From Podarcis pityusensis (taxonomy: Eukaryota), in the NCBI GenBank assembly GCA_964106645.2, contig OZ067038.1: a DNA stretch of 64,000 nt; one strand, given 5' to 3'. Below, piece after piece: positions 3,001-6,943 of this stretch. The position numbers are program-made. Within the stretch, counting starts at the first letter, position 1, and each line of letters begins with the position of its first letter.

Positions 3001-6000
3001 CTGCTCCAGATGTATTAGACTTCAGCTGCCATCAGCCCTGCCAGCATGCTAAAGCTCAGGGATAATAGGTTTAATCCAGAAACATCTGAAGGGCCACAGG
3101 TTCACCCCATTCTGAACTCTTATTTGCTTGCTCCATCTTAAACCACACAAGGCAGTAGCTCAGGGTGACAAGACAGGAAAATAAGAATCTGCCTTAACCC
3201 AAATCAGACTACTGCCCATCCAGCCCAGTCTACCCTGCCTGGCAAAGGTTGCAGACAGGATTTCCCACCATCAGCTCCTATCTTATTTTTGTTACTAGAG
3301 AGGCCAGGAAGTGAACCTAAGACCTGCTGCATGCAAAGTATGCACTCTTGTCTCTGATCTATGGTAGCTCTCCTACCTGCCCAATGAACATACTTGCTGT
3401 TCTGGGCTGCAGCTGTCCTACCCTGCACAACATGAGCATTCTGTAAACGTTAAACAAACAAAAAAAACCCCAAGGACAACAAACTGCAGTGCCTGGTTTA
3501 TCTATAAGCGCATAGCAAAAGATAATTTGTTTTTTAACCAGCTGAGTTCTAAAGAATACCCACCTCACAGTTAAGAAAATGACAGACCTAGCTAATATAT
3601 AATTGTTAGCAATCCTGGGCTAATATTCAGTTATTGTTTTAAGGTTGCAGTGAGACCTTCCTTTCCTATGTCACACTGATTCCTTTTCGAACTAAGAGCA
3701 ATTAGTTCGAAATTGTGCATCCATTTTACAATGCAAAAAAAATAACAAATAATAAGCATTGAATAAGGTGCATATAATTTTCCACTTTATATTTTCAGTT
3801 CACAAATATTTCCTATGTATTAATAATAAAAGTGCTTAGCTGTGGTTAGAAAAAGCTCTTGAAATTCCACTGCTTTCAACAGCAATGCTAAGCAAATATT
3901 TCTCACTGGAACAAAAAGGAACCTGAAAATTATCTCTGGATGGACCATGCCAAAACTAAAAGAAATGACTTCAGGTAATTAAGGAAAGAGCCTCAAAGTT
4001 ATCTCCACAAATGCAAGTTCCTAAACCCATATTTCCGGAGATAATGCGAAGGTAGAAGGAAGGGGTGCTTACAGATTTTTCCCTTGAAAATCTCCCCTTC
4101 CCCCACCAGCTGGTTGGGAGCCCAGCTGGGGAAGAAATTAATTTAAAGCAGCAAGGGAGGGCAATTGCAGAGGGGAAATGGTGAATGGGGAAGGATTAAG
4201 GACCCCCTCCCTCCAGGTATCTCCCTGCCCTGCATTTATCTTACAAAGGAAACACTGGGCTGGGGACTTCAAATTTCCCTTGTAACATCTATTCCTTCCC
4301 CCCCCCCCCAAAAGCCTGCATTATTTTCTGTCCTTCCTCCAAACGTTTTAGGAAGCCCAACAACTTAATTCTATCCTTTCCCTCCCCCCCCCAATAAAAC
4401 TCAGTACCTGCATGTTGTAAATTAAAAGTTTATTTCAATATATTTATTTCACAGTCCTTTTTTTCAAATTACTCATCAGTATTCACTGCAGTTATTCAAT
4501 TACGCCACACCTGCAATTTCAGGCTCTCTTTCCACACCAAGGGCCACTTAAAGCAATTCAATAGCTACCAGCTAGTGACAGCTGGCGAACCCAAACCTGC
4601 CTCCGGTAGTCTATCATATGCAATCAATTGCAAACAGAGCATCAGCAGGCTCATCTCATTATTTCCTGGATAATTCCCCCAGGGAAAACAAAAATCAGCC
4701 CTCCACTTCGAGTCAGGATGCTGTAATACCCGCCCCAACCCCTCAATTCCTTTCTCCTCTCGTTTCCATCAGTTCACTACGCTGCTTTGGCTTTTAAGCT
4801 TGATATCCGTTATGTTATGTCAGCTGTTACATTACGCTTAAGACAATAGACTCCAGCTGGCTGAGGTCAGATGTAAAAACAAGGACCTAACAAAGCCATG
4901 GGCCCTCCAGTTATATTGAAATTGAGATACATACTGAATGTAGCACTTAATGACAAACTACTTCCCAGACTTTTGGACAAGACATAAAGGAAACACCTGT
5001 CACTGCAAGTGTAACATGCTAATCCTGATAAGTTTAAAAATCCTTCTCAGTGCTCAATTCTGCTGTATGCCAGGGTTTAACAGGCTTAAGTTTCCTCTCC
5101 CCATCTCAAGAACAGAAAATTTTTCCTCTCCTCTGCTTATTATATATAGTAGGATTGTAAGTCTAAAATCATTTCTGCATAGCAAAACTGCTCTCATCCA
5201 GATGCTCTGCGCGAAGTGAGATTTACTGTTCTAAACCTGTAACTACAATCGGTCGTAAAGTTCATCTAGTATTTTACGTCTGACGGTATTTCAAGAAAAA
5301 GCCAATGTATGTGGATTTCAGAGTTCTAATTTTTTAAAAGGCTTTACAACAATTCCCTAAAACTGTGTTTTCCTTCCAGGCTGTGTTTTCTCTTAACTCA
5401 CATAGTAGCCATGGATTAACAAGACTCCATTAAACGGTGAGTGTGTGAGAGGAAAGAAATCTATAATCAGCTGATGCCACATGGAAATATATGTTCATTG
5501 TTACAGTGGTGCCCCGCAAGACGAATGCCTCGCAAGACGGAAAACCCGCAAGACGAAAGGGTTTTCTGTTTTGGAGGCGCTTCGCAAGACGAATTTCCCT
5601 ATGGGCTTGCATCGCAAGACGAAAGCCCATAGGGAAATGCTGGCGGTCGGGAGCAAAGACTTTCGCCCACAGCCGGCCTTCAGAAGAGGACCTCTTCTGA
5701 AGGCCGGCGGGGGGCAAAAGTCTTTGCTCCCCCCCGCCTGCCTTCCCCCCCGCCTGCCCCGGGCGATCTTAAAATGCTGGCGGGCGGGAGCGAAGCGTTC
5801 GCTGCCGACCCCCAGCATTTTAAAATCTCCCCGGGACAGCAGAGAAGTCTCTGCTGTCCCGGGGAGATTTTAAAATGCTGGGGGTCGGGAGCGAAGCGTT
5901 CACTGCCGACCCCCAGCATTTTAAAATCTCCCCGGGACAGCAAAGAAGTCTCTGCTGTCCCGGGGAGATTTTAAAATGCTGGGGGTCGGGAGCGAAGCGT

Positions 6001-6943
6001 TCACTGCCGACCCCCAGCATTTTAAAATCTCCCCCTGTCCCGGGGAGATTTTAAAATGCTGGGGGTCGGGAGCGTTCGCTGCCGACCCCCAGCATTTTAA
6101 AATCTCCCCCTGTCCTGGGGAGATTTTAAAATGCTGGGGGTCGGGAGCGAAGCGTTCACTGCCGACCCCCAGCATTTTAAAATCTCCCCGGGACAGCAGA
6201 GAAGTCTCTGCTGTCCCGGGGAGATTTTAAAATGCTGGGGGTCGGGAGCGAAGCGTTCACTGCCGACCCCCAGCATTTAAAAATCTCCCCGGGACAGCAG
6301 AGAAGTCTCTGCTGTCCCGGGGAGATTTTTAAATGCTGGGGGTCGGCAGTGAACGCTTCGCTCCCGACCCCCAGCATTTTAAAACGCTGTTCCGAAGCGG
6401 GGCGGGGGGGCCGGAACACCTTCTGAAGGCGGGCGGGGGGCGAAAGTCTTTGTCCCCCCTGCCTGCCTTCCCAGGGGCTTTTAAATCGCCCCGGACAGCG
6501 GAGAAGTCCTCCGCTGTCCGGGGCGATTTTAAAATGCCGCCCGCCAGCATTTTAAGATCGCCCGGACAGCGGAGAAGTCCTCCGCTGTCCTGGGGTTTTT
6601 TAAAATGCTGGGGGTGGGAAGAAAAGCCCTTGTCCCCCCCCCCCCCAGCCTTCAGAAGAGGTCCGGGGACAGACTGTCCCCGGACCTGGTCTGAAGGCGG
6701 TTTCCCTAGGAACGCATTGATTGATTTTCAATGCATTCCTATGGGAAACCGTGCATCGCAAGACGAAAAACTCGCAAGACGAAGAGACTTGCGGAACGAA
6801 TTAATTTCGTCTTGCGAGGCACCACTGTACTTCCACGGCAAAGCTCTCTCTTAAAAGCTCTGAGTTCTTAAAAATCAGACTTTAATTCCCTGTAAAGAGC
6901 TCTGATATATCTTCCAGAATGCGCAATTGATATACCAAAGATG

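What the first reader, a model, noticed from the sequence alone, without database searches (positions are those of the whole stretch)
5504..6827. Tigger-like MITE whose whole interior is built of hairpins and has expanded into a palindromic satellite
Seen: between intact 22-bp TIRs almost every segment is an inverted repeat. These are 5593-5638 (the CGCAAGACG motif sits in its loop), ~5650-5730, six alternating-module units of ~101-bp period at 5806-6384, two variant units at 6478-6610, ~6648-6698 and ~6699-6750. Because the 28-bp module alternates in orientation, the array can fold in many alternative registers as ssDNA, cruciform DNA or KCNQ1 pre-mRNA. Abundant intact CpGs suggest a young insertion. 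Inference: a foldback-like mobile carrier that generates and disperses an unstable palindromic minisatellite, and a possible source of dsRNA or small RNAs. I cannot tell whether this family is already catalogued.
Basis: partly seen in the sequence, partly recalled or inferred. Interest (0 to 1): 0.72.

Follow-up and report, generated by a model that had tools for sequence, protein, structure and literature searches.

The report
Hairpin-filled transposon in KCNQ1 intron
A 1.3-kb non-coding cut-and-paste transposon sits in an intron of the KCNQ1 gene and carries a run of back-to-back hairpin repeats; the structure is real, but it belongs to a known kind of element.

Summary
Window 5504-6827 is a 1,324-bp element with 22-bp terminal inverted repeats (21 of 22 matching) flanked by TA on both sides. 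It has no protein-family match above cut-off. Its interior is almost all hairpins: 84% of bases pair, against 60% in 40 control windows.

At its centre, a 28-bp module occurs 12 times in strictly alternating orientation (5807-6344). This makes four 101-bp units plus one 80-bp and one 75-bp unit. The last 160 bp are a perfect palindrome.

Both ends have the same layout as a ~242-bp MITE family present six times in this window. That places it in the Tc1/mariner-pogo group, but "Tigger-like" rests on end similarity only.

Spacer orientation shows the array grew mainly by direct tandem duplication. A hairpin-centre deletion and one inverted duplication came later.

It lies in KCNQ1 intron 2. KCNQ1 is on the minus strand, and the contig is not taken for human.

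Untested, because only this one copy was available: spread as a satellite, instability, young age, small RNAs, and whether the family is already catalogued.

Transposons carrying internal tandem repeats are already described (miDNA4, Tetris, DTC84). I rate this a new member of a known kind, of modest interest.

The parts
5502..5503 (.). TA flank (target-site duplication, left copy)
   Evidence: Read directly. The matching TA is at 6828-6829.
5504..5525 (+). 5' terminal inverted repeat, 22 bp
   Evidence: exact match. Its partner at 6806-6827 has 1 mismatch. 0 of 100 shuffles gave a match.
5513..5557 (+). End A: three direct copies, at a 16-bp period, of the inner TIR motif CGCAAGACG. Further copies at 5583 and 5613.
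   Evidence: period 16, 2.9 copies. (motif positions; only 1 copy outside the element, at 54021). The neighbour MITE family has the same 16-bp-period layout (14370-14411 and 19707-19761).
5593..5638 (.). Hairpin P1, with CGCAAGACG in its loop
   Evidence: -18.7 kcal/mol, z -8.3.
5632..5748 (.). Long imperfect hairpin H (58-nt arms, 86% complementary)
   Evidence: I12. (z -12.6).
5757..6384 (.). Central array: 12 full 28-bp modules in alternating orientation, separated by two spacer types. S1 is 21 nt and asymmetric. S2 is 24 nt and near-palindromic.
   Evidence: RNA fold -569.1 kcal/mol against -239 +/- 8 for shuffles.
6009..6142 (.). Two short units (80 and 75 bp) that share the same 21-bp deletion of the S2 hairpin centre. 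One also has a 5-bp deletion in S1.
   Evidence: the S2 spacer is 3 nt instead of 24 at 6037-6039 and 6112-6114, and S1 is 16 nt at 6068-6083.
6225..6384 (.). Perfect palindrome (79 + 2 + 79 nt). Its right arm holds the only flipped S1 spacer (6345-6365) and a truncated 13th module.
   Evidence: I7, 100% complementary; the flipped S1 carries the derived TTCACTGCC state.
6385..6477 (.). G/C-rich linker, not significantly structured on its own
   Evidence: z -1.5.
6478..6610 (.). Two diverged variant units (71-bp spacing, 85% alike), each a hairpin
   Evidence: D2. (z -9.7 and -10.2).
6648..6698 (.). Hairpin related to the centre of hairpin H
   Evidence: z -8.4. (D9, D10).
6699..6750 (.). Hairpin P2, sharing the TTTCCCTA..GGGAAA arms with P1
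   Evidence: z -9.1..
6751..6827 (-). End B: 3' TIR (6806-6827), the conserved spacer TTAATTCGTTCCG, and two copies of the inner motif inverted relative to the TIR. It folds as a hairpin.
   Evidence: alignment A2. (z -8.0); 33-34 of 48 anchored identities to the neighbour MITEs' end B, null 12 +/- 3.
13496..13586 (-). Context: KCNQ1 exon 2 (91 nt), 6.7 kb upstream of the element in the direction of transcription
   Evidence: AG acceptor, GTATGC donor.
53345..53754 (-). Context: coding part of KCNQ1 exon 1, inside a CpG-rich region
   Evidence: PDB KCNQ1 chain residues 3-129, E 5e-28.. The start codon position is inferred from the alignment.

Best explanation
This is a non-autonomous cut-and-paste DNA transposon of the Tc1/mariner-pogo group, inserted at a TA in intron 2 of KCNQ1.

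It would be moved in trans by a transposase that binds the 22-bp TIR and the repeated inner motif CGCAAGACGAA. That motif occurs as three direct copies at a 16-bp period at one end and two inverted copies at the other.

It is a structural sister of the ~242-bp MITE family that litters the same window. The two share the terminal core CAGTGGTRCCTCG, the same asymmetric end layout and the same spacer. The roughly 10-bp inner motif differs, so a related but distinct transposase is likely (inferred).

The interior is non-coding filler made of nested hairpins. Its centre is a 101-bp unit made of two back-to-back hairpins. This unit was amplified mainly by direct tandem duplication (slippage or unequal exchange). 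It was then remodelled by events typical of palindromes: a deletion of a hairpin centre that was itself duplicated, and an inverted duplication that made a perfect 160-bp palindrome.

It most likely has no host function. As DNA it is cruciform-prone, and as intronic RNA it is strongly double-stranded (inferred).
For: Transposon identity:
- TA flanks and TIRs matching at 21 of 22 positions.
- No protein family above cut-off in 14 of 14 element ORFs.
- No Pfam hit in 47 of 47 window ORFs of 100 aa or more, so there is no transposase nearby.

Sister relation to the neighbour MITEs:
- The core CAGTGGTNCCTCG has 13 matches in the window, against 0.11 expected.
- End B aligns base-for-base from the terminus. 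Identities are 33-34 of 48 (null 12.0 +/- 3.0), and 21-23 of 35 beyond the shared core (null 8.9 +/- 2.5).
- End A in both has 16-bp-period direct repeats of the inner TIR motif.
- CGCAAGACG occurs 8 times in the element and once in the other 62.7 kb.

Tandem growth:
- The asymmetric S1 spacer keeps one orientation in the four 101-bp units, the 16-nt variant and the left boundary. It is flipped only at 6345.
- The four 101-bp units are 98-100 of 101 identical, while the flanking variant units are 66-85% alike.

Later events:
- Two units share one 21-bp centre deletion.
- The flipped S1 carries the derived CpG-to-CpA state of the amplified units.
- Both arms of the terminal palindrome share the TTTAAAAA variant.

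Folding.

Precedent: miDNA4 is a Tc1/mariner MITE holding one monomer or a variable array (passage in PMC12628747). Tetris shares its TIR ends with the MITE DAIBAM (abstract).
Against: - Only one copy was seen, so mobility, family size and variation in unit number are unshown.
- No autonomous partner was found, and the superfamily call rests on TA plus the TIRs.
- A 2-bp TA flank is weak evidence of a duplication.
- The resemblance at end A does not go beyond the 13-nt core at sequence level: 10-11 of 35 identities, near the null. Only the layout is shared there.
- The two central short units keep the ancestral S1 CpG state while the units on both sides carry the derived state. Simple stepwise duplication does not explain this, and gene conversion may be involved.
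- 1,324 bp is long for a MITE.
Confidence: 0.72

Rival explanations
1. The interior is fixed. Every genomic copy carries the same array, inherited from one master copy, and the family is an already catalogued repeat of this species. Nothing is unstable or expanding.
For: The flanking variant units, and the mixture of ancestral and derived S1 states, show that the array has some age and structure. Abundant relatives in the window suggest a well-populated group that repeat libraries would normally capture.
Against: The four 101-bp units are 98-100 of 101 identical, and a 160-bp palindrome is 100% perfect. That points to recent events, although they could have happened in a master copy. No library (Dfam, Repbase) or genome was on hand to test this.
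Confidence: 0.3
2. It is a composite: a separate foldback element inserted into a small MITE, so the hairpin interior and the termini are unrelated.
For: The interior has much higher G+C (57-72%) than hairpins P1 and P2 and the 3' end (42-49%). P1 and P2 share arm motifs and could pass for inner inverted ends.
Against: The terminal motif CGCAAGACG sits in the loop of P1. The right arm of P1 overlaps the left arm of hairpin H (5632-5638), so the modules interlock rather than abut. I saw no inner pair of ends with a flanking duplication in the sequence, but I did not search for one systematically.
Confidence: 0.07
3. It is an assembly artefact. The array length, or the terminal perfect palindrome, was produced by mis-assembly of hairpin-forming reads.
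For: Perfect palindromes and near-identical units are hard to assemble.
Against: The array has ordered private variants: 80-bp and 75-bp units, single-base differences and a paired TTTAAAAA variant. It also continues colinearly into the rest of the element, with the correct 3' TIR and TA. No reads were available.
Confidence: 0.07
4. It is a host-used element: a hairpin-RNA or miRNA locus, or a transposon-borne CpG island acting on KCNQ1.
For: Composition meets the usual CpG-island thresholds (58% G+C, observed/expected 0.835 over 1.3 kb). Perfect stems of 38-79 bp would form in the pre-mRNA.
Against: There were 0 Rfam matches at gathering score in the whole window. In the permissive search there were 104 matches; the miRNA-precursor matches are all far below their families' gathering scores and many fall on both strands, as expected for any perfect hairpin. 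One match reached its gathering score, to a bacterial sRNA model (Collinsella-1, 40.6 bits against 35), and I take it as spurious. No conservation or expression data were available.
Confidence: 0.05

Closest known systems
The ~242-bp MITE family in the same window (9316-9557, 14357-14598, 50836-51077, 60987-61203, 54709-54901, truncated 19700-19774; a variant at 11888-12139)
   Same: TA flanks. Terminal core CAGTGGTRCCTCG. End A has 16-bp-period direct repeats of the inner TIR motif. End B has the spacer TTAATTCGTTCCG followed by two inverted inner-motif copies.
   Different: The inner ~10-bp motif is GGTTAAGWAC or GTTTACGAAC there and CAAGACGAA here. Their interior is about 100 bp without an array. 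This element is 5.5 times longer.
miDNA4, a Tc1/mariner MITE of Xenopus tropicalis with an internal satellite motif (passages in the reviews PMC12628747 and PMC9659126; original paper not seen)
   Same: A Tc1/mariner-type non-autonomous element that carries a tandem repeat between its TIRs.
   Different: For miDNA4, variable copy number among copies and satellite arrays are documented; here neither could be tested. The passages I read do not describe an alternating inverted-module array there.
Tetris and DAIBAM of Drosophila virilis (PMC4079207, abstract seen)
   Same: A foldback-like non-autonomous element with internal tandem repeats. It shares its terminal portions with a small MITE and is probably mobilised by the same or a related autonomous element.
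   Different: In Tetris the ~220-bp repeats lie within long TIRs and also form kb-size satellite arrays. Here the repeats are central, the TIRs are 22 bp, and no external arrays were seen.
DTC84 / pearl-type tandem-repeat MITEs of bivalves (PMC3879986, abstract seen)
   Same: A central array of a few core repeats between flanks with short inverted repeats. A palindrome in each repeat is proposed as a hotspot for length change. Repeat variants are ordered.
   Different: A putative AA target duplication and no Tc1/mariner-type ends. The units are direct repeats, not pairs of opposed hairpins.
Rhodnius prolixus MITE_109, labelled Tigger-like (PMC4678618, table passage seen)
   Same: TA plus a TIR beginning CAGTGGTACCTCG, which equals this element's core at 12 of 13 positions at the 3' TIR (11 of 13 at the 5' TIR).
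   Different: An insect element of 300-647 bp. The label in that paper also lacks a partner transposase ('Partner: No').

Membership tests
Tc1/mariner-pogo superfamily, non-autonomous element | TA target-site duplication | tested here: met
   TA at 5502-5503 and at 6828-6829. Only 2 bp, so weak on its own.
Tc1/mariner-pogo superfamily, non-autonomous element | Terminal inverted repeats | tested here: met
   22 bp, 21 of 22 matching, with no match in 100 shuffles.
Tc1/mariner-pogo superfamily, non-autonomous element | No transposase of its own | tested here: met
   0 of 14 element ORFs reach a Pfam cut-off.
Tc1/mariner-pogo superfamily, non-autonomous element | Many copies in the genome, with presence/absence at TA sites | not testable with these tools
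   1 copy in the window. No eukaryotic genome collection was on hand. Scans of the prokaryote collection gave 0 hits.
MITE in the strict sense | Small size (about 400 bp according to the review PMC9659126, passage) | tested here: not met
   1,324 bp.
Tigger (pogo) family | Transposase falling in the Tigger clade (PMC9219625, passages) | not testable with these tools
   No transposase in the element or the window.
Tigger (pogo) family | TA duplication and short TIRs of about 20 bp (range 8-33 bp) (PMC9219625) | tested here: met
   TA and 22 bp. These features are not specific to Tigger.
Tigger (pogo) family | TIR sequence like that of named Tigger elements | tested here: inconclusive
   The only comparison possible was with one MITE labelled Tigger-like in PMC4678618 (12 of 13 core bases). 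No Tigger consensus was available.
Foldback elements (Tetris/FB type) | Long inverted arms, built of tandem sub-repeats, making up most of the element | tested here: inconclusive
   Aligned against its own reverse complement, the element matches in 62% of columns (score 768, against -431 +/- 31 for shuffles). The central arms are 306 nt at 90%. However, S1 orientation shows a direct tandem array of palindromic units, not two opposed arms.
Transposon-borne satellite seeds (miDNA4, DTC84, Tetris) | Tandem array lying between the element's ends | tested here: met
Transposon-borne satellite seeds (miDNA4, DTC84, Tetris) | Unit number varies among copies, and the same repeat forms arrays outside the element | not testable with these tools
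   Within the window, 12 of 12 module matches are inside the element. The genome was not available.

The most novel reading that the evidence does not exclude
The element belongs to a still-active vertebrate lineage of foldback-like transposons. In this reading the palindromic core changes unit number whenever it is replicated, repaired or transposed. The family would then seed unstable palindromic minisatellites across the genome. Where copies land in introns, as in KCNQ1, they would create long perfect dsRNA hairpins that feed editing or small-RNA pathways. The change of the inner TIR motif relative to the abundant neighbour MITEs would mark a recent switch of transposase specificity.
Probability: 0.12. 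Interest if true: 0.6.

Novelty: new member of a known kind. Interest (0 to 1): 0.3.

Why it matters
If the family is multi-copy and its array varies, it would be a clean vertebrate case of a transposon carrying a self-complementary minisatellite. It leaves a readable record of how such arrays grow (tandem duplication) and how they are tamed (centre deletions). That bears on how satellites arise from transposons and on how palindromes survive in vertebrate genomes. The paired change of the TIR inner motif and its subterminal copies, relative to the neighbouring MITE family, is also a small natural experiment in how transposase binding sites evolve together. For KCNQ1, it places a 160-bp perfect palindrome and about 630 nt of near-perfect dsRNA in intron 2, which could be a fragile or editing-prone spot. 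As it stands, it is one well-built copy of a known kind of element.

Tried and rejected
- Looked for other copies in the window. A sensitive blastn of the element against the rest of the window gave only weak hits (E 0.25 or worse). The informative ones were the 42-43-nt terminal matches to the neighbour MITEs.
- Scanned the genome-contig collection for the TIR and for the module core: 0 hits each. That collection holds only bacteria and archaea, so this says nothing about the host genome.
- Rfam. There were 0 matches at gathering score in the whole window. The permissive search gave 104 matches, mostly to generic miRNA-precursor models; those are all far below gathering score and many lie on both strands. 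One match, to a bacterial sRNA model (Collinsella-1), scored 40.6 bits against a gathering score of 35. I take it as a spurious hit of a hairpin array. I rejected these as evidence of an RNA gene.
- Pfam. 47 ORFs of 100 aa or more across the window gave 0 hits. Of 14 ORFs in the element, one gave a sub-threshold VWA_N2 hit (17.3 bits against a cut-off of 27). ORFs shorter than 100 aa outside the element (944 of them) were not scanned.
- Compared with the Anolis carolinensis catalogue (PMC3014272, Table 2, seen). None of the 17 TcMar-N families lists a TIR starting CAGTGGTG or CAGTGGTAC. I then searched the window for 15 TIR consensus strings from Tables 1 and 2, allowing up to 2 mismatches: 13 gave no match, and the 12-nt and 14-nt ones gave only 1-2-mismatch hits that I take for chance. 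The host is therefore probably not that species and the catalogue is not the right comparator. Its supplements are closed and were not seen.
- Literature searches for the TIR and module strings found only the Rhodnius table for the neighbour-type TIR core and nothing for this element's own strings. Searches for MITE-, satellite- and foldback-related papers and for squamate transposon papers found no description of this element. These searches cover only the held library.
- Considered CpG richness as proof of youth and rejected it as a sharp clock.
- Considered a single giant inverted duplication as the origin of the array. I rejected it because the S1 spacers keep one orientation on both sides of the symmetry centre.
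- The 'ensemble diversity 0.0' printed is a numerical failure and was not used.
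Full report
Scope and limits. The window has no N. I do not take the contig for human. The ORF holding KCNQ1 exon 1 aligns to a solved 676-residue KCNQ1 chain with 6 differences in the best-conserved 41 residues and much lower similarity before that. The window is also full of a MITE family that I recall, without a test here, as typical of squamate genomes. 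The two exons were examined one by one and never joined. No eukaryotic genome, Dfam or Repbase was on hand. The collections metagenome contigs and viral contigs and all paper supplements were closed. Everything about other copies of this element therefore stays unchecked.

The observation. The element runs from 5504 to 6827 (1,324 bp). Its 22-bp ends match at 21 of 22 positions, and no shuffle of the window gave a match. TA lies on both sides. Two stretches do not, or only weakly: the linker 6385-6477 (z -1.5) and the 5' subterminal stretch 5504-5592 (z -2.9).

The 28-bp module occurs 12 times in strict +/- alternation between 5807 and 6344, and nowhere else in the 64 kb. Tandem Repeats Finder reports periods of 101 and 80. 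A spacer-by-spacer reading gives four 101-bp units, one of 80 bp and one of 75 bp.

Folded whole with RNA parameters, the element reaches -1050 kcal/mol with 84% of bases paired and 66% in uninterrupted stems of 10 or more. Forty control windows of the same length gave -351 +/- 44, 60% and 15%. CpG observed/expected is 0.835, against 0.279 in the rest of the window.

What it is. No ORF of the element reaches a Pfam cut-off (0 of 14). No ORF of 100 aa or more in the window has any Pfam hit (0 of 47). It is therefore non-autonomous, and no partner lies nearby.

The best clue to its kin is in the window itself. The core CAGTGGTNCCTCG occurs 13 times, against 0.11 expected. Eleven of these belong to a ~242-bp TA-flanked MITE family and one variant of it.

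The element and that family share more than the core. One end (B) has the TIR, then the spacer TTAATTCGTTCCG, then two copies of the inner TIR motif in inverted orientation (alignment A2). Counted without gaps from the terminus, 33-34 of 48 bases agree, against a null of 12.0 +/- 3.0. Beyond the 13-nt core, 21-23 of 35 agree, against 8.9 +/- 2.5.

The other end (A) carries, in both, direct repeats of the inner TIR motif at a 16-bp period. There the sequence itself is not similar beyond the core (10-11 of 35).

What differs is the inner motif. It is CAAGACGAA here, present 8 times in the element and once elsewhere in the window. In the neighbours it is GGTTAAGWAC or GTTTACGAAC. In each lineage the subterminal copies follow that lineage's own TIR. 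This is what one expects of repeated transposase binding sites that evolve together. That they are binding sites, and that the transposases differ, is inference.

'Tigger-like' is a fair guess but not a tested membership. TA and a ~20-bp TIR fit Tigger (PMC9219625, passages) but also other Tc1/mariner groups. The only sequence comparison open to me was a Rhodnius MITE, labelled Tigger-like without a partner, whose TIR begins with the same core (PMC4678618, table passage). At 1,324 bp the element is also large for the word MITE.

How the array arose. The unit is module(+), spacer S2, module(-), spacer S1. S2 (24 nt) is nearly its own reverse complement. S1 (21 nt) is not (7 mismatches), so it marks strand.

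S1 has the same orientation at the left boundary, in the four 101-bp units and in the 16-nt variant. It is flipped only at 6345. The array is therefore a direct tandem repeat of a unit that happens to be two opposed hairpins. Its overall self-complementarity (306-nt arms, 90%) is a by-product and not the trace of one large inverted duplication.

The four 101-bp units are 98-100 of 101 identical. The flanking variant units at 6478-6610 are 66-85% like them or like each other. So one unit type was amplified or homogenised recently, relative to the rest of the interior.

Three later events can be read:
- A 21-bp deletion removed the centre of the S2 hairpin. It is shared by two adjacent units, so it happened once and was then duplicated. 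From established knowledge, recalled, central deletions are the usual way long palindromes are stabilised in vivo.
- A 5-bp deletion occurred in one S1.
- An inverted duplication or conversion made 6225-6384 a perfect palindrome. Its flipped S1 carries the derived CpG-to-CpA state of the amplified units, and both arms share a TTTAAAAA variant.

One thing does not fit a simple stepwise model. The two central short units keep the ancestral CpG in S1, while the units on both sides carry the derived state.

Whether these events happened at this locus or in a master copy cannot be told from one copy.

Context. KCNQ1 is on the minus strand. The coding part of exon 1 ends at 53345 with a GTGAGT donor and matches residues 3-129 of a solved KCNQ1 chain (E 5e-28). 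Exon 2 is 13496-13586. Short recalled motifs for exon 3 found nothing in the window.

The element therefore lies 6.7 kb into intron 2. The sense-strand RNA of the array folds at -573.9 kcal/mol, against -236 +/- 9 for shuffles. That this RNA is edited, diced or sensed is untested.

Age. The high CpG content agrees with a young element. However, the neighbour MITE copies, only 88-93% alike pairwise, still have CpG observed/expected of 0.49-0.85. I give this argument little weight.

Comparison with what is known. Transposons that carry internal tandem repeats and can seed satellites are well described:
- miDNA4, a Tc1/mariner MITE of Xenopus with one monomer or a variable array (review passages).
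- Tetris, a foldback-like element that shares its TIR ends with the MITE DAIBAM (abstract).
- DTC84, with a palindrome in each repeat proposed as a hotspot for length change (abstract).

This element works like these. Its particular trait is a unit made of two opposed hairpins, so that the array is at once tandem and palindromic. I did not find that trait described in the searches, nor the element's strings. These searches cover only the held library, and repeat databases could not be consulted.

The Anolis carolinensis catalogue (PMC3014272, Table 2) lists no such TIR. I also searched the window for 15 TIR consensus strings from Tables 1 and 2 of that paper, allowing up to 2 mismatches. Thirteen gave no match, and the 12-nt and 14-nt strings gave only 1-2-mismatch hits that I take for chance. 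The host is probably another species.

Verdict. It is a non-autonomous Tc1/mariner-pogo-type element with a palindromic internal minisatellite, and a sister of an abundant local MITE family. I rate it a new member of a known kind, with interest 0.3. The claims about dispersal, instability, youth and small RNAs need the genome, reads and RNA data.

Noticed in passing
window 53345-53754 (-) and 52000-54100: The coding part of KCNQ1 exon 1 lies in a CpG-rich region (58% G+C, CpG observed/expected 0.86). This is probably the promoter CpG island. Intron 1 would span 13587-53344.
   Followed up: partly
window 13496-13586 (-): KCNQ1 exon 2 (91 nt), with an AG acceptor and a GTATGC donor.
   Followed up: partly
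window 9316-9557, 14357-14598, 50836-51077, 60987-61203, 54709-54901, 19700-19774: Six copies (one internally deleted, one truncated) of a ~242-bp TA-flanked MITE with TIR CAGTGGTACCTCGGGTTAAG/CAKAC. The four longest copies were compared: they are 88-93% alike pairwise and have asymmetric ends. That is about one copy per 10 kb.
   Followed up: partly
window 11888-12139: A 252-bp TA-flanked variant of the same architecture with a third inner motif (TIR CAGTGGTACCTTAGTTTACGAAC). Three binding-site variants of one end layout therefore coexist within 64 kb.
   Followed up: no
window 37405-37509 and 39989-40093: Inverted repeat of 105 nt, 94% complementary, 2,479 bp apart. These are possibly the ends of another ~2.7-kb element. 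A 29-bp tandem duplication lies at 37482-37538. ORFs of 100 aa or more overlapping 37136-40472 gave no Pfam hit.
   Followed up: no
window 42609-42754: A local hairpin with 63-nt arms, 92% complementary, and a 20-nt loop.
   Followed up: no
window 6944-6986: A perfect (ATA)14 microsatellite 117 bp downstream of the element.
   Followed up: no
window 6063-6225 (-): In the permissive Rfam search, the bacterial Collinsella-1 sRNA model scored 40.6 bits, above its gathering score of 35. It was absent from the gathering-mode run. I take it as a false hit of a multi-hairpin model on a hairpin array.
   Followed up: partly
window 5504-6827: By composition alone the element meets the usual CpG-island thresholds (1.3 kb, 58% G+C, observed/expected 0.835). 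It would be a transposon-borne CpG island with tandem repeats inside a KCNQ1 intron. No functional meaning was tested.
   Followed up: no
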